Source of the DNA: an uncultured Pseudomonadota bacterium
GTDB taxonomy: Bacteria; Pseudomonadota; Alphaproteobacteria; RF32; CAG-239
DNA length: 64,000 bases
NCBI GenBank assembly: GCA_949295935.1
Contig: CASFMW010000011.1
Location: forward strand, 6,822-70,821
Reading direction: 5' to 3'
This document shows positions 4,583-64,000 of the stretch, in pieces; the stretch's first letter is position 1, and the number at the start of each line of letters is the position of its first letter. Under the pieces are notes generated by a model, which worked only from the letters and a program-made list of their open reading frames with translations, made no database searches and had not been told where the DNA came from. The translations under genes were made by a program, and so were the position numbers.

Positions 4583-4674
4583 TTTGCCTCACCTTTTCGT
4601 TATCTAAAAAATTCTTGTTCTTAATAATATATAAGAACGCCATGAGGTCAAAATCAATAAATATTAGAAATTTT

Positions 4675-5844
4675 TTATTTAACTTGTTTATTTTCTTGCG
4701 GCATAAGACGGATTAAAGTCAGTTCTGACGGCGCAAACAACCGCATCATCGGCCCCCATGTTCCATAACCGTTAGACACATACAAATCCATTCCTTTGAC
4801 TTTGTGCAAACCGGAAACATAATGATTAGCCAACTTCACCAAATGATGAAACGGATAAATTTGCCCACCATGCGTATGTCCCGAAACAATCAAATCAACA
4901 GCATTTTTATACAACCTGTCAGCAAAGACCGGACTATGAGATAACAAAATTTTATAGCTATCTTCTTTACGGTCTTTCAACAAACGATAAATATCAACCT
5001 TCAGCTCTGACGGCGCAGCTTTAACTGAATTATAATCAGGAATTCCACCCACAAAAATATTCAGCTCCGGAATATATTGACCGGTATTATACAAAAGCTG
5101 AAAACCCAGTTCATTAAACTTTGGCACCCAAGAATTCAACTCCGAATAAAATTCATGATTTCCCAAAGAGAGAAAAGTTCCATACTTTCCCCTGATTCCT
5201 TCCAAAAGTTTTGCTTGCTTATCCATAGCACCGGCACGATCATCAATCACATCCCCAGGCATCACCACAATTTCCGGCCGCAACCCTTTAATCTGAGCAA
5301 CTAACTTTCTAAGCCGTTTATCAGATGTTGTCCGATTAGCATGCAAATCATTCAAAACAACTATATCCACCGGTTGTTTAATTTTGTCGCTATAAAGCAC
5401 AACTTCTTTAATCGGCGGCGTCTTATAGCCTTCATGCAAGCCCCATACTGTCAGCATCACACAAAAGACAACCGCCACTGCATTTGCTCGGTTAATCAAA
5501 ACCCCATTCATCGGATCTAAAAAAGAAGACGGCTTTCCACACAACTGCGTAATCTTATGTATCCCGATCCACAAAAAATCTCTAACCAACAAAACACAAA
5601 ACAGCAAAAAGACAAAGCCAAACAAAGTATACAAAACATCATTAACCACAGCATAAGTCTGCCCTTCAAGCCAATGATGACGTCTAATCATCCCCAAGAT
5701 GAGTGGTGCCGTCCAGCCGGATAAAACCAACAAAGACACGCCCCACTTGAGCCAAATAGAATAATCGCTATAAGCGCATAATACCCGAATGGTAATTAAA
5801 GAGGCGGATAAAACAACAACAAAAAAAGCAATAAAAAAATACAC
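4675..5844 (-). CDS. membrane-anchored metallophosphoesterase (YkuE/YaeI-like)
   Basis: N-terminal TM helices followed by calcineurin-like motifs: DLHAN, GDVIDD, GNHEF, GHTHGGQ. Confidence 0.85.
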   Translation of the reverse strand: MYFFIAFFVVVLSASLITIRVLCAYSDYSIWLKWGVSLLVLSGWTAPLILGMIRRHHWLEGQTYAVVNDVLYTLFGFVFLLFCVLLVRDFLWIGIHKITQLCGKPSSFLDPMNGVLINRANAVAVVFCVMLTVWGLHEGYKTPPIKEVVLYSDKIKQPVDIVVLNDLHANRTTSDKRLRKLVAQIKGLRPEIVVMPGDVIDDRAGAMDKQAKLLEGIRGKYGTFLSLGNHEFYSELNSWVPKFNELGFQLLYNTGQYIPELNIFVGGIPDYNSVKAAPSELKVDIYRLLKDRKEDSYKILLSHSPVFADRLYKNAVDLIVSGHTHGGQIYPFHHLVKLANHYVSGLHKVKGMDLYVSNGYGTWGPMMRLFAPSELTLIRLMPQENKQVK

Positions 5845-5885
5845 TTCTCTCTCCCTCCTCCTCTTTTTTTAATTAAATCTGAGGG

Positions 5886-6395
5886 CTAAACTTCAGCGGC
5901 AACAGCAGCCGTCTTGCGACGATAAACTCTTTTTTTCGGAGCCGGAGCAGATTCACTTTCTGCTTTCGGAGCATCAGAAATTTCAATAACCGTAAAAGCT
6001 TTTTTCTCAACCACTGGAGCTTCTTCAACCGGCGCACTTGCTACTTCTGATGATTGAGCTTCCGTGCCATTATCATTCTCTGCAACTTGCTTATCAGCAA
6101 CATTTGCCTCAACAACATTTTCAGCATCATGATTAAAGTTATTGCGCTGCATTTTCTTCTCATTAATCTCGGTCACGATTTTACGATAATGTTCTGCATA
6201 TTGGCGATAAACTTCTGCGGTAATATAATCATTATTACTAACGCTGTCTTTAGCTAAATCATTATATCTTTTAATCAAATCCAACGCTGTTCCGGTAATT
6301 TTTCCTGCCGGACTTGTGCTGTCAAATTTATAATTAAGAGAATAGACCTGATTATTATAATTATTGTTGCGATATTTATTATTTAATTTTTTCAT
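5886..6395 (-). CDS. DUF4167-like protein
   Basis: The motif GTALDLIKRYNDLAKD...AEVYRQYAEHYRKI, an acidic/Ala-rich tail and a position next to prmC fit alphaproteobacterial DUF4167 as I recall it. Confidence 0.65.
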   Translation of the reverse strand: MKKLNNKYRNNNYNNQVYSLNYKFDSTSPAGKITGTALDLIKRYNDLAKDSVSNNDYITAEVYRQYAEHYRKIVTEINEKKMQRNNFNHDAENVVEANVADKQVAENDNGTEAQSSEVASAPVEEAPVVEKKAFTVIEISDAPKAESESAPAPKKRVYRRKTAAVAAEV

Positions 6396-6547
6396 ATTTA
6401 ATCCATAATTCGAGTAATGATTTCTACACGAAAATCTTTTCCTAAGTGATAAAAAAATAAGTTATTTCGGGAAAAAATTCTTAGTACTAAACCTAAAAAA
6501 ACAAGTACTTTCACGCTTATAATACATAATAATTTTTAATTTGCAAT

Positions 6548-7393
6548 TTATTTTTTCAAAATTATGCAACGCTCAATTCCAGCCAAATCCCTCAAGGTTT
6601 GACACCAAATAAACCCTTGTTTTTCAAAAATATTTCTTATTTCCTGAGCCTGATTAATTCCGCCTTCTAGCAAGATATATCCGCCTTTGCGCAAAATTTT
6701 TGGAGCAACTTCGGCAATCTTACGATAATGATCATAGCCGTCATCTCCGCCATCAAGTGCACTCAAAGGATCATAGCTTCTAACACAAACATCCAAATCA
6801 TCAATATCTTTACGCGGAATATAAGGCGGATTCGATACAATCATATCATATTCCACACCTGTTTTTTGAACAAAATCATCTTCAAACCAGCTCAAATTCA
6901 TCAACTGACAACGATTTCCAACGCCCAACCGCTTAGCATTCTCGGCAGCTATTGCCAAAGCTTTTTCCGAAGCATCAATTCCCACTCCGCTCAAAGATAG
7001 AAAATCAACTAACAACGACAACAAAATGCAGCCCGAACCTGTGCCGAAATCAATAATCTTTTCCATCTTATTTTGAAAAATTAATCTTCCGGCAGCCTCA
7101 ACCAAAACTTCTGTATCAGGCCGAGGAGAAAGCACATCTTCGCTCACCTTAAAGCGATATTTATAAAAATCTTTTTCTCCGAGTAACTTATCCAAGGGAG
7201 CTCCCTCTATTCTTTTCTGAAGAATATTTTTCAGATGCTCGCTTTGTTCCTCGGTTAAATCAAACGCGCCACTACCGATTTCATCACTGTCTTTTCCCAA
7301 GACAAAAGCAAGCACCATCCGCCCTTCCAATCTTGGCGAATCAACTTTTCCGACCAACTGTTTAACAACTTGTTCAAACGCTATATTTATCAT
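6548..7393 (-). CDS. prmC: release-factor glutamine N5-methyltransferase PrmC/HemK
   Basis: SAM-binding motif IDFGTGSGCI and catalytic NPPY. 281 aa. Confidence 0.9.
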   Translation of the reverse strand: MINIAFEQVVKQLVGKVDSPRLEGRMVLAFVLGKDSDEIGSGAFDLTEEQSEHLKNILQKRIEGAPLDKLLGEKDFYKYRFKVSEDVLSPRPDTEVLVEAAGRLIFQNKMEKIIDFGTGSGCILLSLLVDFLSLSGVGIDASEKALAIAAENAKRLGVGNRCQLMNLSWFEDDFVQKTGVEYDMIVSNPPYIPRKDIDDLDVCVRSYDPLSALDGGDDGYDHYRKIAEVAPKILRKGGYILLEGGINQAQEIRNIFEKQGFIWCQTLRDLAGIERCIILKK

Positions 7394-8703
7394 CTTAAAC
7401 TATAAATTGTTTTATCCGGCAAACTATTGACCAACCGCTGAATATAAAAACCTTGATACATGTTAATGCCAAGCGAATTTCCAACTTCCACCGCAGCAGG
7501 ATCGTCAACGCGACACAAAATCATTTTTGCACGTTCTGCCCGATTAACATAATCCATAAAATGCTTATCTTCGTGAATAACATCCATAAAGCTCGGATGC
7601 CAAATAATCTTGATAAGATCCGCATCCAGATTTTGCCGATTAATATATTTCAGCTTATCAACCGTAATACCGTCAATACAAATCTTATAGCCACGATACT
7701 GAGCAAAAGTCTTCGCCAGCATATAGGCCTTTATATCGCTGAAAATATCAACCAACTGCAACTCGAGCACAATCGTAGAGCGGGTTGTTGTATTAATTCC
7801 ATCATCAAAAGCTAAAAACTCATCTGACAATATGGTCGACACGTTCAAATTCAAACTAAAATTACTGGTCAAAGCACCATCATCATGCTGACTGACATGC
7901 TCCAAAACTCTTTTATCAAGCGTACCGGCTAGAGCTAAAAACAGCCACGGATTCGCCATAAAATCCAAATCCGGCAACAACATATCACGCAAATCGCTAA
8001 TTGCCACATAAGCTTCGTCAAACAACACCTGAGGAGAAGATTTCCCGATAATAGCACAAACTGACTGCCGACGAATCAAACTGGCAAAATCAGTCATCGA
8101 CAAGGCTTTTTGAATTTTTCCGAGCAGCGCCGGTGTCAACTCACGCCTTAGCTTTTTAACCTGAGGCTTAACAATGCGCCACTCATCGGTTTTATCAGAT
8201 GTTGTTTTTTTTCTAAGCGCAGAAAAGCTCTGCTCTGCAGCTGTTTTCATTGCGGCATCAATCGCCTGCTGAAAGCTGTTATCTAATTCATAATAAACAA
8301 CAAACCCGACTTTTTCTAAATCAAAAGAGTTTTTAATCAGCGGATCATCATGGAAAATATATTTTACTTTAATCAAACAGGCTAATATCTCTTCTTCCAT
8401 TTTTTTGTTATAAACAACTATCATATCATCATTTGGAAGACCGAAAATCTCACCTTCACCTTTTGCAGAAACAACCTCAAAAGTCTCTACCAAAGACTGC
8501 CGCGACAAATACTTTTGGTTAGCTTCACTCAGCTTGCTTGTGCACAAATATAAGGCTTTATAATCACTTTTGCTTGGCAATCTGGCCACATAATCATTTA
8601 TCAACACGTCTTTTTTTATTTCAGGCTGCAAAGACGGCGTCTGCACTTTCTTTTTATCTGATTTTTTGTTGTTTTTATTAAAAAAGAGCATATCCAACCT
8701 CAC
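7390..8703 (-). CDS. degenerate EAL-like domain protein (paralogue 1)
   Basis: The C-terminal half follows the EAL fold pattern (..LNLNVS.., ..VLELQLVD.., ..DADLIKIIW.., ..MYQGFYI). The EAL, DDFGTG and EGVE catalytic motifs are substituted. 4-nt overlaps with both neighbouring genes. Confidence 0.5.
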   Translation of the reverse strand: MRLDMLFFNKNNKKSDKKKVQTPSLQPEIKKDVLINDYVARLPSKSDYKALYLCTSKLSEANQKYLSRQSLVETFEVVSAKGEGEIFGLPNDDMIVVYNKKMEEEILACLIKVKYIFHDDPLIKNSFDLEKVGFVVYYELDNSFQQAIDAAMKTAAEQSFSALRKKTTSDKTDEWRIVKPQVKKLRRELTPALLGKIQKALSMTDFASLIRRQSVCAIIGKSSPQVLFDEAYVAISDLRDMLLPDLDFMANPWLFLALAGTLDKRVLEHVSQHDDGALTSNFSLNLNVSTILSDEFLAFDDGINTTTRSTIVLELQLVDIFSDIKAYMLAKTFAQYRGYKICIDGITVDKLKYINRQNLDADLIKIIWHPSFMDVIHEDKHFMDYVNRAERAKMILCRVDDPAAVEVGNSLGINMYQGFYIQRLVNSLPDKTIYSLR

Positions 8704-54494: not shown

Positions 54495-56612
54495 ATGACA
54501 AAAAAAACTAATATCAATCAAAATTTTGATAACCAAGATTGGTGGAAGACTGCTACTTTAGAAGATGTCTTAAACGAAATATCAAAAGGAGCAGATTTAA
54601 ATCATTTTTCTAAAGGTCTTTTTATGCAAAACTCATTTAGTTACGCCATGAGGAACAAGACTAAAGAAAGGTTTGAAATATTGAAGACTCTTGTAAAAAA
54701 AGGGGCTGAATTCGAGCATGAGCTTCCTGATTTGTTTGCATATTATTCTATTGATGAAGCTATATATTTTTTAGAACAAGCAAGTCCCATAGAAACATAT
54801 GTATTAAACAGTATCTTCTGTTATCTAATACAGTATAATCGTATAGAACCTTTAAAATATATATTAAATCGCTATCAAGACATAATTTTTACTTTAGAAG
54901 AAACGTATAAACTTGCACGTATTAAAGACAAAGATATTATATCCATCTTTTTAAACAAAGTTATTATACCGCATAAAGAGGAGCTCAATCTTATTACTAC
55001 CATTGTGTCTGAGGCGTGTAAGCAAGAAAACGCAACTTTATTAAATGTCTTATTAGATAAAGTATTTACTAGCAAATTTCCTGAAAATATATGCGATAAT
55101 ATACTGACATCCAATGCTCTAAATAGAGAACTAATTCTCAAATTTCTGGAAAAAGGTGTTGATAAAAATTTAAAAGACAGCCATGGGAGAACATTATTAA
55201 ACCAGCTTACCAATATCTATTGTCAAAGATTTAACCCCGAAGAAACATCTCTTAAATTAATAAAAGAAGACATCCTTTATTGGATTGATTATGGCATGGA
55301 TGTTAATATACCCTGTAACAACGGTAGCACACCTCTATTAAACATGTGTTCTGCAACGGTTCCGTCATTAGAAATTATATCAAAGTTGATTTCCAAAGGA
55401 GCTGATGTTAATGTTAAAAGGAAGGATTATGTCAAAATTAAATTATCTGAATTATACAGAGCCGCACCTACTGATAACGATACACCTTTGTATAATGCCA
55501 TTGATAAAAGTGCAAATACTGAGTTGATACACTTATTATTAGATTCTGGGGCTAACGTTAATGCTTACGACAGAAACAATGATGTATCTATTATTGATAT
55601 TGCAATAAAGAGAGAATGTAACACCGAAACGATAGATAAAATATTAAAATCTGGTATTAATGACTATTATAAAAAACGCGGTTTTTTAAGACTTATAAGA
55701 CAAGGTGGTTCTTTTGATATTTTTAATGTTTTCATTAACAATGGAATTGATATAAATGAAAAATTCACTGGATACGTTGAATGGGTGTGGTGGTGCAAAG
55801 ATTATACTCCATTAATGATGGCTTGTTACTGTGGTAATTTAGATTATGTAAAATTATTAATAGATTTAGGAGCAGACACTAATGTCAAAGATGAAAAAGG
55901 AAGGTCATTATTGTCTATTGCTTGCCTGGCCACATTTCCAGAACCATCTTTAATAGAATTTTTAATAAAATTAGGCTTTGACGTTAATGAACAAGATGAT
56001 GAAGGAAATACACCGTTAATGATAAGCTATCAAAATGGAGACCTCGCTAGTATTTTCAATGTGTTAATTAAAAATGGAGCAGATATCAATAAAAGAAATC
56101 ATAATGGGGATAATATTTTATTAGTCAAATATTATCCGATTAATTCTCGAACAAATATCGATAGGGTTTGTGTAAAACATGGTGCCGATGTAACAGTCGT
56201 AAATAATAATGGGAAAAAGGTAAATGAATATTATATTTCATTACATGAAGAATTATTTGATACCGTTATTGACAGAAAAAAAATAGATAAAGAAGTTGAA
56301 AATAAATTGAAAAACAAAGAAGCAAAACAAAACTCAAAAATTAATACCCCCAACCTTTTTAAGAATAAAGTTGTTTGTTTTGCAGGATTTAAAAACAAAA
56401 AGCTATCTGATTATATCAAAAGTCATGGTGGCAAGTATGTTACTTCTTTAATTGATGACTGTAATCTGCTAATCAGAAAGCATCAATATCGGGGAACAAC
56501 TAGTGAAGATTCCTTAGTTAGAGAAGCAATTGAAAAAGTAATTAAGACAGAACCACTTTGTGAAATTGAAAATAAAATACAAGAATATGGAGACATAGAA
56601 CAATTGCGTTAG
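54495..56612 (+). CDS. ankyrin-repeat protein with C-terminal BRCT-like domain (705 aa)
   Basis: Multiple ANK units (G.TPL..A......i..LL..GADVN pattern, e.g. DEGNTPLMISYQNGDLASIFNVLIKNGADIN). C-terminal NKVVCFAGFKNKKLSDYIKSHGGKYVTSLIDDCNLLI resembles the LigA-type BRCT. Confidence 0.75.
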   Translation: MTKKTNINQNFDNQDWWKTATLEDVLNEISKGADLNHFSKGLFMQNSFSYAMRNKTKERFEILKTLVKKGAEFEHELPDLFAYYSIDEAIYFLEQASPIETYVLNSIFCYLIQYNRIEPLKYILNRYQDIIFTLEETYKLARIKDKDIISIFLNKVIIPHKEELNLITTIVSEACKQENATLLNVLLDKVFTSKFPENICDNILTSNALNRELILKFLEKGVDKNLKDSHGRTLLNQLTNIYCQRFNPEETSLKLIKEDILYWIDYGMDVNIPCNNGSTPLLNMCSATVPSLEIISKLISKGADVNVKRKDYVKIKLSELYRAAPTDNDTPLYNAIDKSANTELIHLLLDSGANVNAYDRNNDVSIIDIAIKRECNTETIDKILKSGINDYYKKRGFLRLIRQGGSFDIFNVFINNGIDINEKFTGYVEWVWWCKDYTPLMMACYCGNLDYVKLLIDLGADTNVKDEKGRSLLSIACLATFPEPSLIEFLIKLGFDVNEQDDEGNTPLMISYQNGDLASIFNVLIKNGADINKRNHNGDNILLVKYYPINSRTNIDRVCVKHGADVTVVNNNGKKVNEYYISLHEELFDTVIDRKKIDKEVENKLKNKEAKQNSKINTPNLFKNKVVCFAGFKNKKLSDYIKSHGGKYVTSLIDDCNLLIRKHQYRGTTSEDSLVREAIEKVIKTEPLCEIENKIQEYGDIEQLR

Positions 56613-56751: not shown

Positions 56752-58461
56752 ATGTCTATAAACGGAAATATCAATCAAAAAGCAAATTTAATCTGGTCAA
56801 TAGCTGATGTTTTGACCGGAACATATAAACCTCATGAATATGGCGAAGTTATTTTGCCAATGATGGTTATTAAGCGTTTTGATTGTATTTTGGAAGACAC
56901 CAAGGAAGCTGTATTGAAAAAATTGCCTGAAGTTAGCAATTTACCGATGAAAGATATCTTTCTAAAAAAGGCAAGCGGACATCCGTTTTACAATACAAGT
57001 AAATTTAATTTCAAACGATTATTAGACGCTCCTGACAGTATTGAAATAAATTTCCGTTCATATTTGAATGATTTTTCCGATAATGTAAAAGATATTTTAG
57101 AGCATTTTGAATTTGAACGCCATATTGAAAGATTAGCTTCGCATGATTTGCTTTATATGATTATAAAAAAGTTTAGCACTCCTGACGCTGATTTACACCC
57201 CTCAAAAATTAGCAACTTGGAAATGGGATATATTTTTGAAGAAATTATTCGCCGCTTTTCAGAAGCTCATAACGAAGATGCTGGACAACACTATACCCCA
57301 AGAGAAGTCATAGAACTTATGGTTAATATACTTTTCAATAATGATAATAGCATATTGACCGGAAATGTTGCAAAAACACTATATGACCCAACCGTAGGAA
57401 CGGGCGGAATGCTTTCCGTTGCGGAAGAATATCTTTCAAGACTAAACAAAAATGCAAAGCTTATTTGTTATGGACAAGAGATAAATGACCAAACCTTTGC
57501 TATTTGCAAAGGAGATATGCTCATTAAAGGAAATGATGCAAACAACATTAAATGCGGCAATACATTATCTGATGACCAATTTGCAGATGATAAGTTTGAT
57601 TATATATTATCGAATCCGCCTTTTGGTAGAGAATGGAAAAATGATAAAAACGCCGTGGAAAAAGAAGCAAAATTGGGGTTTGCTGGGCGTTTTGGTGCCG
57701 GATTACCGCCTATTAGCGATGGACAAATGCTCTTTTTGCAAACAGCAATCCACAAAATGAGACCGGAAGGTTCAAAAGTTGCTATTATTCAAAATGGTTC
57801 TCCGTTATTTAGTGGTGATGCCGGAAGCGGACAATCAGAAATACGCAAATATATATTGGAAAACGATTTGTTAGAAGCTATCGTTGCTCTACCTAATGAT
57901 TTGTTTTATAATACCGGCATTGCAACCTATATTTGGGTATTTAACAACAAAAAGCCTGTGGAAAGAAAAGGCAAGGTTCAACTTATAAATGCCAATGGAT
58001 TATATGAAAAACGCCGTAAATCATTAGGAAATAAGAGAAACGACATTCCGCAAAAGTATATAGATAAAATTACACAAATTTACGGAGATTTCAAAGAAAA
58101 TGAAATTAGCAAGATTTTTAATAACGAAGACTTTGGTTATGCAAAAATTGTAGTTGAACGCCCGCAAAGGGATGAAAATGGCGAAATTATCTTGAAAAAA
58201 GGTAAGCCGATAGCGGATTCTGAATTAAGAGATACAGAAAACGTGCCTTTAACAGAAGATATTCATGAATATTTTCAGCGAGAAGTTATTCCTTTTGCTC
58301 CGGATGCATGGATAGATGAAAGCAAAACTAAAATTGGCTATGAAATTCCATTTACAAGATATTTTTACAAATATGTTCCACCTCGCCCATCTGATGAGGT
58401 TTTGTCAGAAATTATGACTTTACAAAAAGATTTGGAACAAACCTTGAAAGGATTGTTTTAA
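56752..58461 (+). CDS. hsdM: type I restriction-modification methyltransferase subunit HsdM
   Basis: HsdM N-domain (LWSIADVLTG), SAM motif DPTVGTGGML, catalytic NPPFG. Confidence 0.95.
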   Translation: MSINGNINQKANLIWSIADVLTGTYKPHEYGEVILPMMVIKRFDCILEDTKEAVLKKLPEVSNLPMKDIFLKKASGHPFYNTSKFNFKRLLDAPDSIEINFRSYLNDFSDNVKDILEHFEFERHIERLASHDLLYMIIKKFSTPDADLHPSKISNLEMGYIFEEIIRRFSEAHNEDAGQHYTPREVIELMVNILFNNDNSILTGNVAKTLYDPTVGTGGMLSVAEEYLSRLNKNAKLICYGQEINDQTFAICKGDMLIKGNDANNIKCGNTLSDDQFADDKFDYILSNPPFGREWKNDKNAVEKEAKLGFAGRFGAGLPPISDGQMLFLQTAIHKMRPEGSKVAIIQNGSPLFSGDAGSGQSEIRKYILENDLLEAIVALPNDLFYNTGIATYIWVFNNKKPVERKGKVQLINANGLYEKRRKSLGNKRNDIPQKYIDKITQIYGDFKENEISKIFNNEDFGYAKIVVERPQRDENGEIILKKGKPIADSELRDTENVPLTEDIHEYFQREVIPFAPDAWIDESKTKIGYEIPFTRYFYKYVPPRPSDEVLSEIMTLQKDLEQTLKGLF

Positions 58462-58462
58462 G

Positions 58463-59140
58463 ATGAGTGAAGCAACAGAAAACCATACAATTACAAATAT
58501 TGGAGCTGGAATAGCCAAAGCTGTTATGAACTCGAATCCAATAACCGGTTTTGTTCAAACCATATATGATGAGTATGCATCAAGACAATGGCAGCAGAGA
58601 AGAGAAAAATGGGAAGAAGTTTTTGAGGAAAAACTTAAGGATATTCAAAACGATGTTGATTTTTTAAAGATAAATTCTATTCCAAATTTTGCTCAAATAC
58701 TAGCCAATGCCACACAGGGAGCTATGTCTGATATAGAAGAAGATAAAGTGGGATTGTATGCTAATGCGGTTATCAATTCTATCAAGAGCGAAAATATTGA
58801 TAATACTAAAACGCATATATTTTTAAATATGTTGCGAGACTTCACAAAACTCCATATAGAAGTATTACAAGAACTAGCTTTGTTAGATAATGGAATACAC
58901 CCAAATTTACGCCACGGCAGAGATAGTTATATAAAACAAAGAATTAGAGAAAAAAATCCACAACTCATAGAAGATATAGGAATGTTTAGGCTGACAGCTT
59001 TAGAATTACAACAAAAAGGTCTGTGTGTTGTAACTGTTATTGATATGGCAGATAACAGTGATTATGACAATGTAATAACCACTTCATTAGGCCAAGAATT
59101 TCTTCAATTCATAGCAGAACAGGAGAATAGTAATGGGTAA
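58463..59140 (+). CDS. unknown protein X1 (225 aa), Abi-alpha/DUF4393-like core motif; paralogue of X2
   Basis: Starts 1 nt after the hsdM stop. The block DIEEDKVGLYANAVINSIK..IDNTK.HIFLNMLR and the tail LGQEFLQFIAEQE are shared with X2. Confidence 0.75.
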   Translation: MSEATENHTITNIGAGIAKAVMNSNPITGFVQTIYDEYASRQWQQRREKWEEVFEEKLKDIQNDVDFLKINSIPNFAQILANATQGAMSDIEEDKVGLYANAVINSIKSENIDNTKTHIFLNMLRDFTKLHIEVLQELALLDNGIHPNLRHGRDSYIKQRIREKNPQLIEDIGMFRLTALELQQKGLCVVTVIDMADNSDYDNVITTSLGQEFLQFIAEQENSNG

Positions 59141-59825
59141 GAAAGAGGAAATGCTAGAGTGCCTAAAAAATATAACAATAGCAGGAGCACCTCTCATTTT
59201 AACACCTGTTGGAGCAGCCTTGTTATCATTAGCAAATGAATGCTTTAATTCAACAGCTCAAACAAGACAAGATAAATGGAATGAAGAAATTGTAACAAAA
59301 ATATCTAATTTATCGGAAGATTTTGAAGAGAAATTTAATACGTGCTCTAATTTTGCCAGTATATTAGCCACAGCACAAAGGGGGGCATTGGAAGATATAG
59401 AAGAAGATAAAGTGGGTTTGTATGCTAATGCAGTTATAAATTCTATTAAAAATGAAGATATTGATAATACAAAAATACATATCTTTTTGAATATGTTGAG
59501 AAAATATTCAAAACTACATTTAGGTATATTGCAAAAATTTTCCCCCACTTCGGGAAATAATATTTATGAAATATTGAAAGATATTTTTTGTAAAAGGTCT
59601 AATTACCATGATAATGATTTAGATACTCAAATAAAAGCAATATTTCATCAAAAAGATAAATTTAATCCTGTGGAATATACAATAGTTAATGAATTATATA
59701 ATGACAATTTGTTTTCTGTGCAAGTAAGTCCAGAGCACATCTCATATAAGGAAAGTAATTTGGATATTCAGATAACGCCATTAGGACAAGAATTTCTTCA
59801 ATTCATTGCAGAACAGGAGAAATAA
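59133..59825 (+). CDS. unknown protein X2 (230 aa), paralogue of X1
   Basis: 8-nt overlap with X1, with AGGAGA 6 nt upstream. Shares the conserved central block and C-terminal tail with X1. Confidence 0.75.
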   Translation: MGKKEEMLECLKNITIAGAPLILTPVGAALLSLANECFNSTAQTRQDKWNEEIVTKISNLSEDFEEKFNTCSNFASILATAQRGALEDIEEDKVGLYANAVINSIKNEDIDNTKIHIFLNMLRKYSKLHLGILQKFSPTSGNNIYEILKDIFCKRSNYHDNDLDTQIKAIFHQKDKFNPVEYTIVNELYNDNLFSVQVSPEHISYKESNLDIQITPLGQEFLQFIAEQEK

Positions 59826-59826
59826 G

Positions 59827-60768
59827 ATGAGGCATAAAAAGTCAGAGCATAATGAAACACAAACATCAAGAGAAAGATTTGTATTTCATATAGATACAAC
59901 AAAGCCTGAAATCACATTGCAGGATTTCATAGAAATCTCAAAGTCTTTAGAAGTAACTTGTAAATCAGTTTCTGCGTTGGTTTTTAATAATGCTCCATGC
60001 CAGATTATAATTGAAACCCCTGAGAATGGTTCATTAAAGTTAGTATATAAAATTGCAATGGCTGTTGGTATTGCTTTAGCTCCAGATATTACTAATGGAA
60101 TATTGGAAGAATACACAAATCATGATGTTAAATATTATGCAGGAAAGGCTAGCAGAGCTTTTACAGATTGTGTTAGTGGCATTTATTCTGCGTCAATGGA
60201 TAAACTAAAAAAAACATTAAGGGGGCTTCCAGAAGAAAACAAGGATAAATTTGAGAGAATAATAAAAGCTCAAAATGATTTTTACGGAACATTAAATAAG
60301 ACTAAAGAATTTAAAGGTGTTGGATTTTCTGATGACTATAACTTTCCTGTATCTAGAAAAGAGTTTTCCATTCATACAACAAATGATATAGAAAGAATTT
60401 TACCAACAGAACAAGCTCTTAAACATCTCGTCATTTACAAATCATTGAATGTTAATGAGGACGGAAAATGGGAGTTTAAAGATAAAGCAGATGGTAGCCA
60501 TTTTTCAGCTAATATTGAAGATGAGTTCTTTAAAAAACAGTTTCTAAATGGTAAGAATCCGTTAAAAAAGACAAAAAAAGATGATGAAATTATAGCTTTA
60601 GTGGAATATGAAAAAAAGATAAAAAACGGTTCAGCAATAGAACAAAACAGAGTTATCAAAGAGATTTATACATTTAATAATAAAGAATTAAGAAAAACTC
60701 CGGAAAATTTAATTATGAATCTAATGAAAAAGAAAGAAGATAAGCAAGGGGATTTGTTTGATGACTAG
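59827..60768 (+). CDS. unknown protein X3 (313 aa)
   Basis: ATG 59827 lies 1 nt after the X2 stop, with AGGAGA 6 nt upstream; the track start 59806 is less likely. No recognisable motif. Confidence 0.7.
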   Translation: MRHKKSEHNETQTSRERFVFHIDTTKPEITLQDFIEISKSLEVTCKSVSALVFNNAPCQIIIETPENGSLKLVYKIAMAVGIALAPDITNGILEEYTNHDVKYYAGKASRAFTDCVSGIYSASMDKLKKTLRGLPEENKDKFERIIKAQNDFYGTLNKTKEFKGVGFSDDYNFPVSRKEFSIHTTNDIERILPTEQALKHLVIYKSLNVNEDGKWEFKDKADGSHFSANIEDEFFKKQFLNGKNPLKKTKKDDEIIALVEYEKKIKNGSAIEQNRVIKEIYTFNNKELRKTPENLIMNLMKKKEDKQGDLFDD

Positions 60769-62008
60769 GGCGATGAAAGATAGCGGAATTGAATGGATTG
60801 GTCAAATTCCTGAAAATTGGAATATTTCTAAATTAAAAAATTTTAATAAAATCATAATGGGGCAATCTCCATCTTCTGAAGATTATAATTTAGATAATAT
60901 AGGCTTCCCTTTTTTGCAAGGGAATGCTGATTTTACTAATTTATATCCTAAAGAACGTGTTTATACAAAATCTGCCACAAAGTTTTCAAAACCCCTAGAT
61001 ATTCTGTTTTCAGTGAGAGCTCCTGTAGGAGAAAAAAATATTGCAAACAAAAGATATGCTATTGGTAGAGGTCTATGTGCTATCTGTCCAATGTCTCATA
61101 TAATGAAGTATGTATGGTATTTTTTAGATGTGGTAAAAAAAGAATTAGATAGTATTTCTAGTGGTTCAACATTTGATTCTGTATCAGTAGCTGAAATAAA
61201 AAACGCTTGTTATGTTTTTCCTGAAATTACCGAACAACAAAAAATAGCGGATTATTTGGATAAAAGATGTGAGAAGATTGATACTGCTATAGATAATCAG
61301 AAGCAAATCATAGAAAAACTCAAAGAATATAAACAATCTTTGATTACAGAAACCGTAACCAAAGGTCTGAACCCAAATGTAAAATTGAAAGATAGTGGAA
61401 TTGAATGGATTGGCTCAATCCCCGAACATTGGGAAATTCGAAAGCTATCTCGTTTATTTAAAGAAAGAAAATGCAAAAACACAGGAATGAAAGAGCATAA
61501 TGTACTTTCTTTAAGTTACGGTAAAATCAAAAAACGAGATATAGAAAATAATATGGGGTTGCTTCCTGAAAGTTTTGAAACATACAATATAGTTATTCCA
61601 GGAAATATTGTTTTGCGTCTAACAGATTTACAAAACGACCATAGAAGCTTACGTACAGGTTTAGTAAAGGAAGTAGGAATTATTACGTCAGCATACGTAA
61701 CTATGGAAAGAATAATGGATATTGATGAGGATTACTATCACAAATTATTACATACATTTGATATAATGAAAGGCTTTTATAATATGGGTGATGGAGTACG
61801 ACAAAGTTTGAAGTTTAATGAGTTGAATAAGCTACTACTGCCTCAGCCCCCTCTTTCTGAGCAGAAAGAAATAGCAGAGTATTTAGATAAGAAATGTAAC
61901 CAAATAGATGAAGCAATCAAACAAAAAGAAGAAACTATTAGCAAATTGGAAGAATATAAAAAATCCTTAATCTTTGAATGTGTAACCGGCAAAAAAGAGG
62001 TAGCCTAG
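60761..62008 (+). CDS. hsdS: type I R-M specificity subunit HsdS
   Basis: Two target-recognition domains, each opened by KDSGIEWIG.IPE.W. Each is followed by a conserved helical spacer (QQKIADYLDKRCEKID..LKEYKQSLI and EQKEIAEYLDKKCNQID..LEEYKKSLI). Confidence 0.92.
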   Translation: MTRAMKDSGIEWIGQIPENWNISKLKNFNKIIMGQSPSSEDYNLDNIGFPFLQGNADFTNLYPKERVYTKSATKFSKPLDILFSVRAPVGEKNIANKRYAIGRGLCAICPMSHIMKYVWYFLDVVKKELDSISSGSTFDSVSVAEIKNACYVFPEITEQQKIADYLDKRCEKIDTAIDNQKQIIEKLKEYKQSLITETVTKGLNPNVKLKDSGIEWIGSIPEHWEIRKLSRLFKERKCKNTGMKEHNVLSLSYGKIKKRDIENNMGLLPESFETYNIVIPGNIVLRLTDLQNDHRSLRTGLVKEVGIITSAYVTMERIMDIDEDYYHKLLHTFDIMKGFYNMGDGVRQSLKFNELNKLLLPQPPLSEQKEIAEYLDKKCNQIDEAIKQKEETISKLEEYKKSLIFECVTGKKEVA

Positions 62009-62009
62009 C

Positions 62010-62405
62010 ATGACATGGTCTGATTTCTTTTCATCTCAAATCTTTGGTGTTATTATCGGTGCTATTTTAACAGCAGGATTTACTTGGTTTATAGAATATT
62101 TAAGAGCTAAAAGAGATGAAAAATTGTATGTAAAAAGAAAAAGAGAAGAAGTTTATCTTAAGTTATTAGATTTATTAAATGAATATGTTGAACTCCATAA
62201 TGACAATAAAACACCCAATGATGTTGAAATGAAAGAATTTTGGGTAAGATACAAACAATTACGCCCAGCTGTAAAAGTGTATGCATCTCAACACATCGAG
62301 GAATGGTTTTTAGAATCTCTTGATGAAGCCTTTAAAGGAGGTATAAAAGGTCAAGTTAATGGTTTGGCAAAAGAAATTCGTAAAGAACTCGGTATAAAGG
62401 ATTAA
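62010..62405 (+). CDS. unknown single-pass membrane protein Y1 (131 aa), paralogue of Y2
   Basis: Starts 1 nt after the hsdS stop. N-terminal TM (IFGVIIGAILTAGFTWFI), shared KRKREEVY.KL motif and IRKELGIKD tail. Confidence 0.7.
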   Translation: MTWSDFFSSQIFGVIIGAILTAGFTWFIEYLRAKRDEKLYVKRKREEVYLKLLDLLNEYVELHNDNKTPNDVEMKEFWVRYKQLRPAVKVYASQHIEEWFLESLDEAFKGGIKGQVNGLAKEIRKELGIKD

Positions 62406-62408
62406 GCT

Positions 62409-62864
62409 ATGGAATGGTCACAGCTTATTATATCTGCATTATCTGGTATTTTAGGAGCTGCTGTTGGCGGTTTTGCAACTTATAAAACTACAACAAAGCA
62501 ATTCAAATTTATGGCAAAACAAGAGTTGCAGAAGCAAAGAAGAGATGATGAACTTTATTTAAAAAGAAAAAGAGAAGAAGTTTATGTAAAGCTATACGAT
62601 TTTCTAATGAGATTAGAAAAAGATATTCGTATCAGAAAAAATACCTATATGAGCGAAGAAACCAAAAATTATTATAATAATTTAGAAATGCAAACAATTT
62701 GGGCTTCAAATAAGGTTTCAGACAAATTTTATGATTTATGTGAGGCTTTGTGTCAAAGTGCGAATGAATATAAAAAAGATGTAAATAAAGCCCATAACAA
62801 AAATAATAAGAAAATATTAGCCTTTAAGGATTATATTCGTAAAGAGTTGAGCATAAAAGATTAG
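62409..62864 (+). CDS. unknown single-pass membrane protein Y2 (151 aa), paralogue of Y1
   Basis: N-terminal TM (IISALSGILGAAVGGFA), KRKREEVYVKL motif, IRKELSIKD tail. 3-nt gap after Y1. Confidence 0.7.
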   Translation: MEWSQLIISALSGILGAAVGGFATYKTTTKQFKFMAKQELQKQRRDDELYLKRKREEVYVKLYDFLMRLEKDIRIRKNTYMSEETKNYYNNLEMQTIWASNKVSDKFYDLCEALCQSANEYKKDVNKAHNKNNKKILAFKDYIRKELSIKD

Positions 62865-62874
62865 GAGAACGCCA

Positions 62875-64000
62875 ATGGCTGAAGATAACTTAAAAGAAAT
62901 AAATTTAGAAGAAGCAATTGAGCATTCTCTTATTACCCTAGGAGGATACCAAAAAGGTAATCCAGCCAATTTTGACCGAAAATTGGCTCTTGATACTGAA
63001 ACTTTGCTTAATTTTATTAAAACAACTCAGCCTAAGGCTTGGAAACGTTATCAAACTCATTATCCTGTTAATCCGGAAGAATGTTTTATTTCTAACTTAT
63101 GCAAGGCAATAAAGGATAACGGTTTGCTCAAATGTTTGAGAAAACCGTTCCAAGACCGAGGTGTAAAGTTTTATCTATGTTATTTTAAGCCGGAAAGCCA
63201 TATCAACCAAGAGGCCGTTGATTTATATAATCAAAATATTCTACATTGCACTCGCCAATTGCACTATTCTTTATCTAATGAAAACAGTATAGATATTGTT
63301 TTGTTCTTAAATGGTATTCCGTTAGTTTCTATGGAATTAAAAAATCAATTTACCGGACAAGATTATAGCAATGCAATTTCTCAATATAAATTTGACAGAG
63401 CCGGAAAAGATGCCATTTTTGAATTTAAGAATAGAGTATTGGTTCATTTTGCCGTAGATTTGTATAATGTTTATATGACAACCAGATTACAGGGAGACAG
63501 CACTTATTTTCTACCTTTTAACCAAGGTTCAAATGGAGCCGGCAATGTTGGAGGTAAAGGAAATCCTGTTAATCCGAATGGGTTTGCAACATCTTATCTT
63601 TGGGAGAAAATCCTTGCTAAAGATAGTTTTATGGAAATTGTGCAAAAATATCTGCATTTGCAAATTATAAAAGATAAAAAAGGTGTCAAAACCAAAGAAA
63701 TTATGATTTTTCCAAGATATCATCAGTTAGATGTTGTTACCAAACTATTAGCTGATGTAAAGACAAATGGGGTAGGAAAAAATTATTTAATTCAACACTC
63801 GGCTGGTTCAGGAAAATCTAACTCTATTGCTTGGCTGGCTCATCAATTGGCCGGACTTCACGACAACCATGATGAAAATATCTTTAATTCTATTATTGTT
63901 TTAACCGACAGAAGAGTTTTAGATGCTCAGTTACAAGATACAATCTATCAATTTGACCATGTAGCCGGTGTGGTTAAAAAAGTGAAAAATGGTTCAAAAG
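62875..64000 (+). CDS. hsdR: type I restriction enzyme R subunit HsdR (5' part; continues beyond the window)
   Basis: Not in the ORF track because the frame is still open at the window end. Hand translation from ATG 62875 (AGGAGA Shine-Dalgarno) gives MAEDNLKEINLEEAIEH.., the nuclease-domain motif IDIVLFLNGIPLVSMELK, FPRYHQ and the Walker A motif HSAGSGKSNS. Confidence 0.9.
   Translation, partial: MAEDNLKEINLEEAIEHSLITLGGYQKGNPANFDRKLALDTETLLNFIKTTQPKAWKRYQTHYPVNPEECFISNLCKAIKDNGLLKCLRKPFQDRGVKFYLCYFKPESHINQEAVDLYNQNILHCTRQLHYSLSNENSIDIVLFLNGIPLVSMELKNQFTGQDYSNAISQYKFDRAGKDAIFEFKNRVLVHFAVDLYNVYMTTRLQGDSTYFLPFNQGSNGAGNVGGKGNPVNPNGFATSYLWEKILAKDSFMEIVQKYLHLQIIKDKKGVKTKEIMIFPRYHQLDVVTKLLADVKTNGVGKNYLIQHSAGSGKSNSIAWLAHQLAGLHDNHDENIFNSIIVLTDRRVLDAQLQDTIYQFDHVAGVVKKVKNGSK

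What the first reader, a model, noticed from the sequence alone, without database searches (positions are those of the whole stretch)
58463..59825. X1/X2 tandem paralogues with mosaic conservation and an Abi-alpha-like core
Seen: the two proteins (225 and 230 aa) are strongly diverged over most of their length. They share a 36-codon block at 58730-58837 versus 59394-59501, where my hand alignment gives 94 of 108 nt identical. They also share a C-terminal LGQEFLQFIAEQE block at 59087-59125 versus 59781-59819, with 37 of 39 nt identical. That block carries the AGGAGA ribosome-binding site of the next gene in both copies. This suggests duplication of a gene-end-plus-RBS module, or ongoing gene conversion or constraint on two short segments. 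Inference from memory of the family: the core (..FAQIL...DIEEDKVGLYANAVINSI....H.FLNMLR..LH..L) resembles the hallmark region of Abi-alpha/DUF4393 abortive-infection proteins (acidic stretch, then an (M/L)(W/Y)ANLL-type helix, then H..F...L).
Basis: partly seen in the sequence, partly recalled or inferred. Interest (0 to 1): 0.7.

Follow-up and report, generated by a model that had tools for sequence, protein, structure and literature searches.

The report
Module-shuffling Abi-alpha-like genes inside restriction operon
Two neighbouring genes inside a type I restriction-modification operon of a gut alphaproteobacterium belong to a large unannotated protein family, distantly related to the Abi-alpha phage-defence protein, and the two short stretches they share are the points where strains swap the variable halves of these genes by recombination.

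Summary

X1 and X2 are tightly packed (1-nt gaps or short overlaps) in one operon: hsdM-X1-X2-ORF3-hsdS-two small proteins-hsdR. They belong to a family of about 220-aa proteins (1836 representative clusters) with no usable annotation. Each has a variable N module, a near-invariant helical core, a hypervariable C module resembling a winged helix, and a conserved C-terminal helix.

Related strains are about 97-100% identical around these genes but carry a foreign N or C module. One strain joins X2's N module to X1's C module. The blocks are therefore both constrained protein segments and recombination junctions, much as in hsdS.

The Abi-alpha link is remote. X1 and X2 give no PF14337 hit. A 64%-identical relative reaches the gathering score (29.5 against 29). 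Profile-profile probability against genuine phage Abi-alpha proteins is 58-80%, but 16% for the close clade alone.

Relatives also follow GmrSD, lie between type III mod and res, precede SIR2-like genes, or stand alone in prophages. A phage-defence role is inferred, not shown.

The parts
56752..58461 (+). hsdM, the type I R-M methyltransferase. It is the first gene of the operon, and its stop lies 1 nt before the X1 start.
   Evidence: Pfam N6_Mtase 3.6e-65 and HsdM_N 1.8e-26.
58463..59140 (+). X1, 225 aa, a member of the modular Abi-alpha-like family (N module type N0, C module type C1).
   Evidence: ORF. 139 homologues found. Module typing. AF2 model has pLDDT 71.7 and is all-helical with a short C-terminal hairpin.
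58463..58684 (+). X1 variable N module. Strain L015 carries a different module here.
   Evidence: Window vs L015 identity is 0.4-0.6 over 58461-58730, against 0.97-1.0 on both sides.
58685..58858 (+). X1 conserved core (NFAQIL...HIFLNMLR..T.LHI).
   Evidence: 22 invariant columns among 50 homologues, most of them in this stretch. The L001 core is X1-like on its left side and X2-like on its right. Nucleotide identity exceeds expectation.
58859..59086 (+). X1 hypervariable C module (type C1).
   Evidence: 21 C types at 50% identity clustering. The same module, at 97-100% nt identity, sits in the second gene of L052.
59087..59125 (+). X1 conserved tail LGQEFLQFIAEQE. Its 3' end forms most of the ribosome-binding site AGGAGA (59121-59126) for X2.
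   Evidence: The LGxEFLxFI motif is conserved in distant relatives.
59133..59825 (+). X2, 230 aa, the paralogue (N module type N2, C module type C4). It overlaps the end of X1 by 8 nt.
   Evidence: AF2 model built on a deep alignment has pLDDT 79 and pTM 0.76.
59349..59522 (+).
59523..59780 (+). X2 hypervariable C module (type C4). It is replaced in L054 (type C2) and in L052 (type C1).
59781..59819 (+). X2 conserved tail. Its 3' end forms most of the ribosome-binding site AGGAGA (59815-59820) for ORF3. It is the right-hand junction of the L001 replacement.
   Evidence: L001 identity to the window jumps from about 0.45 to 1.0 at 59781.
59827..60768 (+). ORF3, 313 aa, a facultative third cargo gene.
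   Evidence: Weak hits to PADLOC PDC-S42 (6.9e-7), NCBIfam LAPAL_fam (5e-8, below cut-off) and phrog_3243. Absent in L052 and L054. A SIR2_2 gene takes its place in L008.
60758..62008 (+). hsdS, the specificity subunit.
   Evidence: Pfam Methylase_S 1.6e-21, two stretches. Mosaic identity to L008 and L015, as expected from exchange of target-recognition domains.
62010..62864 (+). Two small paralogous proteins with hydrophobic N-termini (62010-62405 and 62409-62864), filling a second cargo slot between hsdS and hsdR.
   Evidence: 29% identity, E 1e-11. Kyte-Doolittle 19-residue maxima of 1.87 and 1.85 at the N-terminus. Other strains carry a PIN_12 gene plus a small ORF in this slot.
62875..64000 (+). 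hsdR, 5' part only (it runs off the end of the window).
   Evidence: Open frame containing HSAGSGKS. It aligns at 98% to loci whose full 1003-aa product carries HSDR_N, ResIII and T1R_D3.

Best explanation
X1 and X2 are two tightly packed, probably co-transcribed cargo genes inside a type I restriction-modification operon (hsdM-X1-X2-ORF3-hsdS-small ORFs-hsdR) of an uncultured gut alphaproteobacterium. They belong to a large, unannotated family of acidic proteins of about 220 aa that is a probable remote sister of the Abi-alpha (PF14337/DUF4393) abortive-infection family.

Each protein has four parts: a variable N module, a near-invariant helical core, a hypervariable C module that looks like a winged helix, and a conserved C-terminal helix.

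Shown: the two conserved DNA blocks are where homologous recombination joins different modules. N and C modules reassort between the two tandem genes and between strains, giving many combinations, in the same way as the target-recognition domains of the neighbouring hsdS.

Inferred: the proteins act in phage defence alongside restriction. The hypervariable C module would recognise a phage-derived or restriction-related trigger. The conserved core and tail would provide the common scaffold or the contact between the paralogues. The output would be Abi-like, or delivered through a neighbouring effector such as ORF3 or a SIR2-like protein.
For: Operon and coupling: 1-nt gaps or short overlaps between all genes, and no excess of promoter-like sites.

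Family: 139 close homologues. A profile search of 1.84 billion representatives finds 1836 clusters at E < 1e-3, nearly all 210-250 aa and matched over their full length. hhalign of the close set against the distant set gives probability 100%, E 8e-47.

Modularity: 3 main N types and 21 C types, and the same C type occurs on different N types.

Recombination at the DNA level:
- L015 equals the window except for the N module; identity jumps from about 0.5 to 0.97 at 58731.
- L001 equals the window up to 58834, then carries a foreign 273-nt C module, then equals the window again from 59775. Its core is X1-like on the left and X2-like on the right.
- The second gene of L052 is X2's N module plus X1's C module, each at 97-100% nt identity.
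- Nucleotide identity of the two blocks exceeds the codon-usage expectation.

Abi-alpha link.

Defence context: relatives sit directly after hsdM of two type I systems, after GmrSD, between type III mod and res, upstream of and overlapping SIR2_2 genes, and as accessory genes in prophages.

Literature: Abi-alpha causes premature lysis of infected cells (PMC6356687). 'DUF4393 domain-containing protein' is the second most enriched annotation among targets of programmed inversions, odds ratio 23 (PMC9881135, Table 1). Genes embedded in type I R-M, BREX and DISARM systems often encode defences (bioRxiv 10.1101/2024.01.29.577857; PMC11411939).
Against: There is no experimental or direct computational evidence for any biochemical activity. 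X1 and X2 hit no catalytic domain in Pfam, NCBIfam, PADLOC or PHROGs.

The Abi-alpha homology is weak. X1, X2 and the close-clade consensus do not hit PF14337, and hhalign for the close clade alone gives only 16%. Foldseek finds nothing significant in PDB or BFVD, so the winged-helix reading of the C module rests on sub-threshold matches.

Both proteins are acidic (pI about 4.8-5.0), which argues against DNA binding by that domain.

The mechanism of Abi-alpha itself is unknown, so 'works like Abi-alpha' explains little.

Most recombinant loci come from closely related metagenome-assembled strains, and assembly chimeras across repeats cannot be fully excluded. However, the same architectures recur in independent samples.
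Confidence: 0.6

Rival explanations
1. X proteins are accessory subunits or regulators of restriction enzymes, not an autonomous defence. For example, they might control assembly or activity, or guard the enzyme against anti-restriction proteins. Their variable modules would then match the partner enzyme or its inhibitors.
For: In the close clade the gene lies within a few nucleotides after hsdM (two different type I systems), after GmrSD, and between type III mod and res. The PrrC-EcoprrI precedent for a guard embedded in a type I system is cited in bioRxiv 10.1101/2024.01.29.577857.
Against: N-module type does not track the upstream enzyme: hsdM is followed by N0, N1 or N2. Distant family members are mostly stand-alone genes with no restriction genes in the 5-kb flanks examined, and some lie in phages. 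The same hsdM, 97% identical, tolerates one or two X genes with different modules.
Confidence: 0.2
2. X proteins are sensors or adaptors for a separate downstream effector (ORF3 here, SIR2-like NADases elsewhere). On this view X1-X2-ORF3 is one three-gene defence system.
For: In L005/L023 the X gene overlaps a SIR2_2 gene. In L008 a SIR2_2 gene takes the place of X2 and ORF3. ORF3 weakly matches the PADLOC defence candidate PDC-S42. An HNH-fused family member and an HNH_5 neighbour also exist.
Against: The X-X pair occurs without ORF3 in L052 and L054, and a single X occurs without any such partner in hsdM-X-hsdS-hsdR operons. Most distant relatives are singletons.
Confidence: 0.15
3. The mosaic pattern reflects only strong purifying selection on a functional core and tail after an old duplication, with no recombination.
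For: The core and tail are conserved at protein level in relatives that are only about 20% identical.
Against: Nucleotide identity exceeds the expectation from amino acids plus codon usage. Alleles from near-identical operons are chimeric, with sharp identity steps at the blocks. N and C types reassort.
Confidence: 0.05
4. X1 and X2 are a phase-variable shufflon, rearranged within a clone by a site-specific recombinase, as reported for genes annotated as DUF4393.
For: 'DUF4393 domain-containing protein' is strongly enriched among targets of programmed inversions (PMC9881135, Table 1).
Against: The two genes are in direct orientation. The only long repeats are the two direct blocks. No inverted copy or silent cassette exists in the 64-kb window, and no recombinase gene adjoins the operon in the window.
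Confidence: 0.03

Closest known systems
Abi-alpha / DUF4393 (Pfam PF14337; E. faecalis EF2833; S. aureus phage phiNM1 ABF73047)
   Same: Both are single-domain, mostly helical proteins of 220-290 aa with no catalytic motif. The order of conserved elements is shared. An N-terminal P/G-containing segment comes first. A central helix pair follows: '..(F/Y)A..(I/V)....K....H.F...(I/L)' (HHSFVEIIKQ in Abi-alpha, HIFLNMLR in X). Next comes a variable region that includes a '(L)..GL(I)' helix. The C-terminal end is 'G..F'. Some X-family members reach the PF14337 gathering score. Some relatives are prophage accessory genes, as Abi-alpha is.
   Different: X1 and X2 do not hit PF14337 at all, and the profile-profile probability is only 16-80%. 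X proteins are shorter than Abi-alpha. The close clade is embedded in restriction operons, often as a tandem pair, and shows cassette-like reassortment of modules. No phenotype is known.
HsdS specificity subunits of type I R-M (exchange of target-recognition domains)
   Same: The layout alternates variable and conserved parts (variable - conserved - variable - conserved). Homologous recombination in the conserved parts creates new combinations. The hsdS gene of this same operon shows this pattern between strains.
   Different: There is no sequence or domain relationship, and no Methylase_S domain. What the X modules recognise is unknown.
Defence genes embedded in restriction systems (PrrC in EcoprrI; TgvAB in the V. 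cholerae type I R-M; PADLOC 'PDC' candidates)
   Same: X1 and X2 lie between hsd genes in the same operon. The content of the slot varies between strains (PMC11411939; bioRxiv 10.1101/2024.01.29.577857).
   Different: X has no ABC-ATPase/anticodon-nuclease or GmrSD domains. X1 and X2 match no PADLOC-DB v2 model convincingly.
PadR/MarR-type winged-helix domains with a C-terminal helix
   Same: In the X2 model the C module plus tail has the topology H-H-H-beta-beta-H. The top Foldseek matches are PadR (LmrR), MarR, TubR and ORC winged-helix domains over about 100 columns.
   Different: No match reaches E < 0.1. The module is acidic (pI 4.7) and hypervariable, so a role in binding protein or ligand is more likely than binding DNA.

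Membership tests
Pfam Abi_alpha (PF14337 / DUF4393) | Score at or above the curated gathering cut-off (29 bits) against the PF14337 HMM | tested here: not met
   X1 and X2 give no PF14337 hit at E <= 1, and the close-clade consensus gives none. The distant-clade consensus scores 22.4 bits. Relative P0036, 64% identical to X1, scores 29.5 bits. The positive control phiNM1 ABF73047 scores 153.6 bits.
Pfam Abi_alpha (PF14337 / DUF4393) | Profile-profile homology to genuine members over most of the domain | tested here: inconclusive
   hhalign against nine phage Abi-alpha proteins (alignment A3): A2 gives 80.4%, E 1.3e-5, 162 columns; A4 gives 57.6%, E 1e-4; A1 gives 15.8%, E 1.6e-3. The register is the same each time.
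Pfam Abi_alpha (PF14337 / DUF4393) | Same three-dimensional fold | tested here: inconclusive
   Neither family has a solved relative by sequence. Foldseek of the X1 model against BFVD viral models found nothing significant.
Pfam Abi_alpha (PF14337 / DUF4393) | Abortive-infection phenotype (premature lysis of infected cells; PMC6356687) | not testable with these tools
   This needs phage infection assays.
Restriction-embedded accessory defence genes (guilt by embedding) | Located between the genes of a restriction system, in the same orientation and tightly packed, with content that varies between strains | tested here: met
   The order is hsdM-X1-X2-ORF3-hsdS, with 1-nt gaps or short overlaps. 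The slot holds X, X-X, X-X-ORF3, X-ORF3 or X-SIR2_2 in related strains.
PrrC-type guard of type I R-M | ABC-ATPase N domain plus an anticodon-nuclease C domain | tested here: not met
   No such domains were found in Pfam, NCBIfam or PADLOC.
HsdS-like modular specificity proteins | Methylase_S (target-recognition) domains | tested here: not met
   There is no Methylase_S hit for X1 or X2. Only the evolutionary mode (module exchange at conserved segments) is shared.
Programmed-inversion shufflons (reported for genes annotated DUF4393; PMC9881135) | Inverted repeats within or next to the gene, silent inverted cassettes, and an adjacent invertase | tested here: not met
   Only direct repeats are present. 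No inverted copy was found in the 64-kb window, and no recombinase lies next to the operon.
Known defence systems in PADLOC-DB v2.0.0 | A significant match to any PADLOC model | tested here: not met
   X1's best hit is RTasHEPN at E 0.018 over 66 residues, and X2 has none. Only ORF3 matches a candidate model (PDC-S42, 6.9e-7).

The most novel reading that the evidence does not exclude
The X family could be a combinatorial specificity system for phage defence, a protein counterpart of HsdS. On this reading the N and C modules are independent recognition or output cassettes. They would be reshuffled at two fixed recombination junctions between tandem and dispersed paralogues. The X(N0/N1)-X(N2) pair would form a heteromer through the invariant core and tail. 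That heteromer would watch several classes of restriction enzyme (types I, III and IV) for attack by phage anti-restriction proteins and trigger an abortive response.
Probability: 0.15. Interest if true: 0.8.

Novelty: new variant of a known kind. Interest (0 to 1): 0.55.

Why it matters
The work gives a name and an anatomy to a very large family that public records call only 'hypothetical protein': 1836 representative clusters, found in bacteria, archaea and phages. It links that family, cautiously, to Abi-alpha, a defence protein whose mechanism is still unknown.

It also shows, at nucleotide resolution, that these genes diversify by exchanging cassettes at two fixed junctions. That is the signature of a component that sets specificity in an arms race. 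It tells experimenters where to cut and paste modules to test what each one does.

The repeated placement directly after hsdM and GmrSD, and between type III mod and res, makes a functional link between restriction and this family directly testable.

Tried and rejected
1. Direct scans of X1 and X2 against Pfam, PADLOC, NCBIfam and PHROGs gave only sub-threshold or noise hits. The best was phrog_11520 (function unknown) at 7e-5 for X2.

2. PDB sequence searches with profiles A1 and A4 found nothing meaningful.

3. Foldseek of both models against PDB, and of the X1 model against BFVD, gave no hit at E < 1e-3.

4. To obtain a genuine Abi-alpha protein, I first guessed that phiNM1 ABF73033 (the gene between the excisionase and the repressor) was the DUF4393 protein. 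I spent the last homologue search on it. It has no PF14337 hit, so this was a dead end. The correct gene is ABF73047.

5. The search for related loci with ABF73047 in genome contigs returned nothing. Homologues were collected from phage records instead.

6. I looked for silent or inverted cassettes and further copies in the window and found none.

7. I looked for internal promoters and terminators. Promoter-like sites are not enriched. One GC-rich hairpin lies inside X2 and is of uncertain meaning.

8. I tested whether ORF3 is a diverged SIR2-like protein. It shows no similarity, and it has no PDB relative.

9. I considered a transmembrane anchor in the N module. Only X2 passes a hydropathy threshold (1.88). 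That stretch contains the family-conserved proline and is modelled as a low-confidence loop, so the call is left open.

10. No supplementary files were held for PMC9881135, so its DUF4393 inversion loci could not be examined.
Full report
**1. Observation**

The region holds two same-strand ORFs, X1 (58463-59140, 225 aa) and X2 (59133-59825, 230 aa). They are paralogues: BLASTP gives 39% identity, E 8e-41.

58730-58837 vs 59394-59501 gives 94/108 nt and 33/36 aa identical. 59087-59125 vs 59781-59819 gives 37/39 nt, and both stretches encode LGQEFLQFIAEQE. Elsewhere, codon-aligned nt identity is about 0.3-0.6.

Each tail ends in AGGAGA, 6 nt before the next start codon (sequence).

I redrew codons from the window's own usage while keeping the amino acids. 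This predicts 83.2 +/- 3.3 identical nt for the core block (P = 0.0008) and 31.7 +/- 1.9 for the tail (P = 0.005). The DNA is therefore more alike than protein constraint requires. The block edges were chosen by eye, which flatters these P values somewhat.

No other copy exists on either strand of the window.

**2. Setting**

The genes sit in a type I restriction-modification operon:
- hsdM, 56752-58461 (N6_Mtase, HsdM_N)
- X1, X2
- ORF3, 59827-60768
- hsdS, 60758-62008 (Methylase_S)
- two small paralogous proteins with hydrophobic N-termini
- the 5' part of hsdR, from 62875

Gaps are 1 nt, or the genes overlap, and promoter-like sites are not enriched. The close relatives come mainly from uncultured gut Alphaproteobacteria. 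One each comes from a Melainabacteria, a Clostridia and a Holdemanella assembly.

**3. The family**

X1 has 139 detectable homologues in the 5.8-billion-protein set. None carries an informative name.

A profile of 50 of them, searched against 1.84 billion representatives, finds 1836 clusters at E < 1e-3. Nearly all are 210-250 aa and match over their full length.

Close (A1) and distant (A2, about 20% identical) members align end to end: hhalign probability 100%, E 8e-47.

Public names are 'hypothetical protein' throughout. The sources include Desulfuromonas, Pseudomonas, Amycolatopsis, Mycolicibacterium, Dehalococcoidia, methanogens and Nitrososphaeraceae, B. cereus plasmids and a Pseudomonas phage.

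**4. Anatomy**

The alignment shows four parts:
- a variable N module (X1 residues about 1-74)
- a near-invariant core (about 75-135: NFAxILAxAxxGAxxDIEEDKVxLYANAVINxIKxExIDNTKxHIFLNMLR..T.LHI)
- a hypervariable C module (about 136-208)
- a conserved tail, LGxEFLxFI

The AlphaFold models have pLDDT 71.7 (X1) and 79.0, pTM 0.76 (X2, built on a 107-sequence alignment). They are helical, with the core at pLDDT 86-96. The C module plus tail forms H-H-H-beta-beta-H.

Foldseek finds nothing significant. For X2, however, the top of the PDB list is dominated by winged-helix proteins with a C-terminal helix: PadR/LmrR, MarR, TubR and ORC winged-helix domains.

Both proteins are acidic (pI about 4.8-5.0). 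Only X2's N module passes a hydropathy threshold, and that stretch contains the family-conserved proline and is modelled with low confidence.

**5. What the conserved blocks are**

I clustered 98 full-length close homologues at 50% identity. This gives 3 main N types and 21 C types, and the same C type occurs on different N types. For example, C1 occurs with N0 six times, with N1 fifteen times and with N2 three times.

DNA comparisons with near-identical operons show the mechanism:
- **L015.** Identity to the window is 97-100% on both sides of the N module and about 0.4-0.6 within it.
- **L001.** It matches the window at 96.7% up to 58834. It then carries an unrelated 273-nt C module. It matches again at 98.8% from 59775, so it has a single X gene. 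Within its core, the left part is X1-like and the right part X2-like.
- **L052.** Its second gene is X2's N module joined to X1's C module, each at 97-100% nt identity.
- **L054.** It keeps X1 but has another C module in X2.

The two blocks are therefore constrained protein segments and also the crossover zones for module exchange, both between the tandem genes and between strains. The adjacent hsdS shows the classical equivalent of this pattern.

The tail's protein conservation does not depend on the downstream ribosome-binding site. The LGxEFLxFI motif is also conserved in distant relatives that are only about 20% identical.

**6. The Abi-alpha question**

- The proposed test, hmmscan against PF14337, is negative for X1 and X2 at E <= 1.
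- At family level, 7/50 close and 6/86 distant members hit PF14337.
- P0036 (64% identical to X1) scores 29.5 bits against the cut-off of 29. It covers residues 54-197 against profile positions 6-151.
- The distant-clade consensus scores 22.4 bits in the same register. The close-clade consensus scores nothing.

For a proper profile-profile test I identified a genuine Abi-alpha protein, phiNM1 ABF73047 (153.6 bits). This followed a wrong first guess. I then collected eight diverse phage homologues.

hhalign against this set gives 80.4% (A2), 57.6% (A4) and 15.8% (A1) probability, always in the same register. The shared elements are the '(F/Y)A..(I/V)' helix, a K....H.F...(I/L) motif, a '..L...GL(I)' helix and a terminal G..F.

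My reading is probable remote homology, that is a sister family, but not membership of PF14337.

**7. Context in relatives**

The close clade appears in these arrangements:
- hsdM-X-X-ORF3-hsdS (window, L015-19)
- hsdM-X-X-hsdS without ORF3 (L052, L054)
- hsdM-X-ORF3-hsdS (L001)
- hsdM-X-SIR2_2-hsdS (L008)
- X overlapping a SIR2_2 gene (L005/L023)
- a second type I system, hsdM-X-hsdS-hsdR (L009, L032-34)
- directly after GmrSD (L002, L020, L022, L029-31)
- between type III mod and res (L010)
- in a prophage or viral contig, upstream of a tail-tube gene (L013/L028)

In tandem pairs the first gene is N0 or N1 and the second is N2.

Distant members are mostly singletons in variable regions. One has an HNH_5 neighbour and one is an HNH fusion.

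**8. Mechanism**

Shown: operon membership, modular architecture, and recombination at the two blocks.

Inferred: a phage-defence role that complements restriction. Three lines of argument support this. The family recurs inside four kinds of restriction locus and next to SIR2-like effectors. It is remotely related to Abi-alpha, which causes premature lysis of infected cells (PMC6356687). Embedded genes in restriction systems are often defences (PMC11411939; bioRxiv 10.1101/2024.01.29.577857).

The hypervariable, reassorting C module is the natural candidate for a trigger-recognition surface. The invariant core and tail are candidates for a shared scaffold or for contact between the paralogues. 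By analogy, the C-terminal helix of PadR-type proteins mediates dimerisation; this rests on established knowledge, not on a test made here.

'DUF4393 domain-containing protein' is the second most enriched annotation among targets of programmed inversions (PMC9881135, Table 1). Sequence shuffling in this superfamily therefore has a precedent. Here the repeats are direct and no invertase is present, so the exchange is by general recombination rather than a programmed switch.

**9. Verdict**

This is a new variant of known kinds: Abi-alpha-like proteins, cargo embedded in restriction systems, and HsdS-style module exchange. It is of moderate interest, mainly because it defines a large unannotated family and gives precise, testable module boundaries.

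Noticed in passing
window 62010-62405 and 62409-62864: A second tandem paralogue pair lies between hsdS and hsdR: 131 and 151 aa, 29% identical, E 1e-11. Both have hydrophobic N-termini and share the motifs KRKREEVY and a C-terminal IRKEL(G/S)IKD. In related strains this slot instead holds a PIN_12 gene plus a small ORF, or a single small ORF.
   Followed up: partly
window 59827-60768 (ORF3): This 313-aa protein has only weak matches: PADLOC candidate PDC-S42 (6.9e-7), NCBIfam LAPAL_fam (32.7 bits, cut-off 60) and phrog_3243. It has no PDB relative. It is present in some strains and absent in others, and L008 carries a SIR2_2 gene in its place.
   Followed up: partly
window 54495-56612: A 705-aa protein with many ankyrin repeats and a C-terminal BRCT domain lies directly upstream of hsdM. 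Related strains carry a 549-aa protein with faint pentapeptide-repeat hits at this position, preceded by Fic-domain genes.
   Followed up: no
window 60758-62008 (hsdS) vs L008, L015, L018: Identity of hsdS between strains is mosaic. Conserved segments lie around 60761-60838, 61232-61437 and 61841-62001, with unrelated stretches between them. This is the classical pattern of target-recognition-domain exchange.
   Followed up: partly
window 59539-59557: A G+C-rich hairpin (TTTCCCCCACTTCGGGAAA) followed by a T-rich run lies inside X2, just after the conserved core, in otherwise A+T-rich DNA. The scan flagged it as terminator-like on both strands. It may be chance.
   Followed up: no
L010 5940-11807 (Melainabacteria MAG): An X-family gene is wedged between the mod gene (N6_N4_Mtase, 671 aa) and the res gene (ResIII plus RE_endonuc, 1049 aa) of a type III restriction system. 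The gaps are 1-10 nt.
   Followed up: partly
L005 7929-9666, L023, L008 4588-6262: An X-family gene is followed by a gene for a SIR2_2-domain protein of about 340 aa. The two genes overlap in L005/L023, and in L008 the second lies immediately after the first. This may be a recurrent two-gene module.
   Followed up: partly
P0353 (355 aa) and L048 3766-5666: One distant family member is fused to HNH and HNH_5 nuclease domains. In Desulfuromonas an HNH_5 gene lies directly upstream of the X homologue.
   Followed up: no
L029-L031, about 4200-8650: The GmrSD-X pair lies in an island with a WYL-domain gene, an HI_0787_N-domain gene and an integrase. The cargo downstream of it varies: either unknown 306-aa and 933-aa proteins, or a fused methylase (719 aa), an HsdS-like protein and an AAA ATPase.
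   Followed up: no
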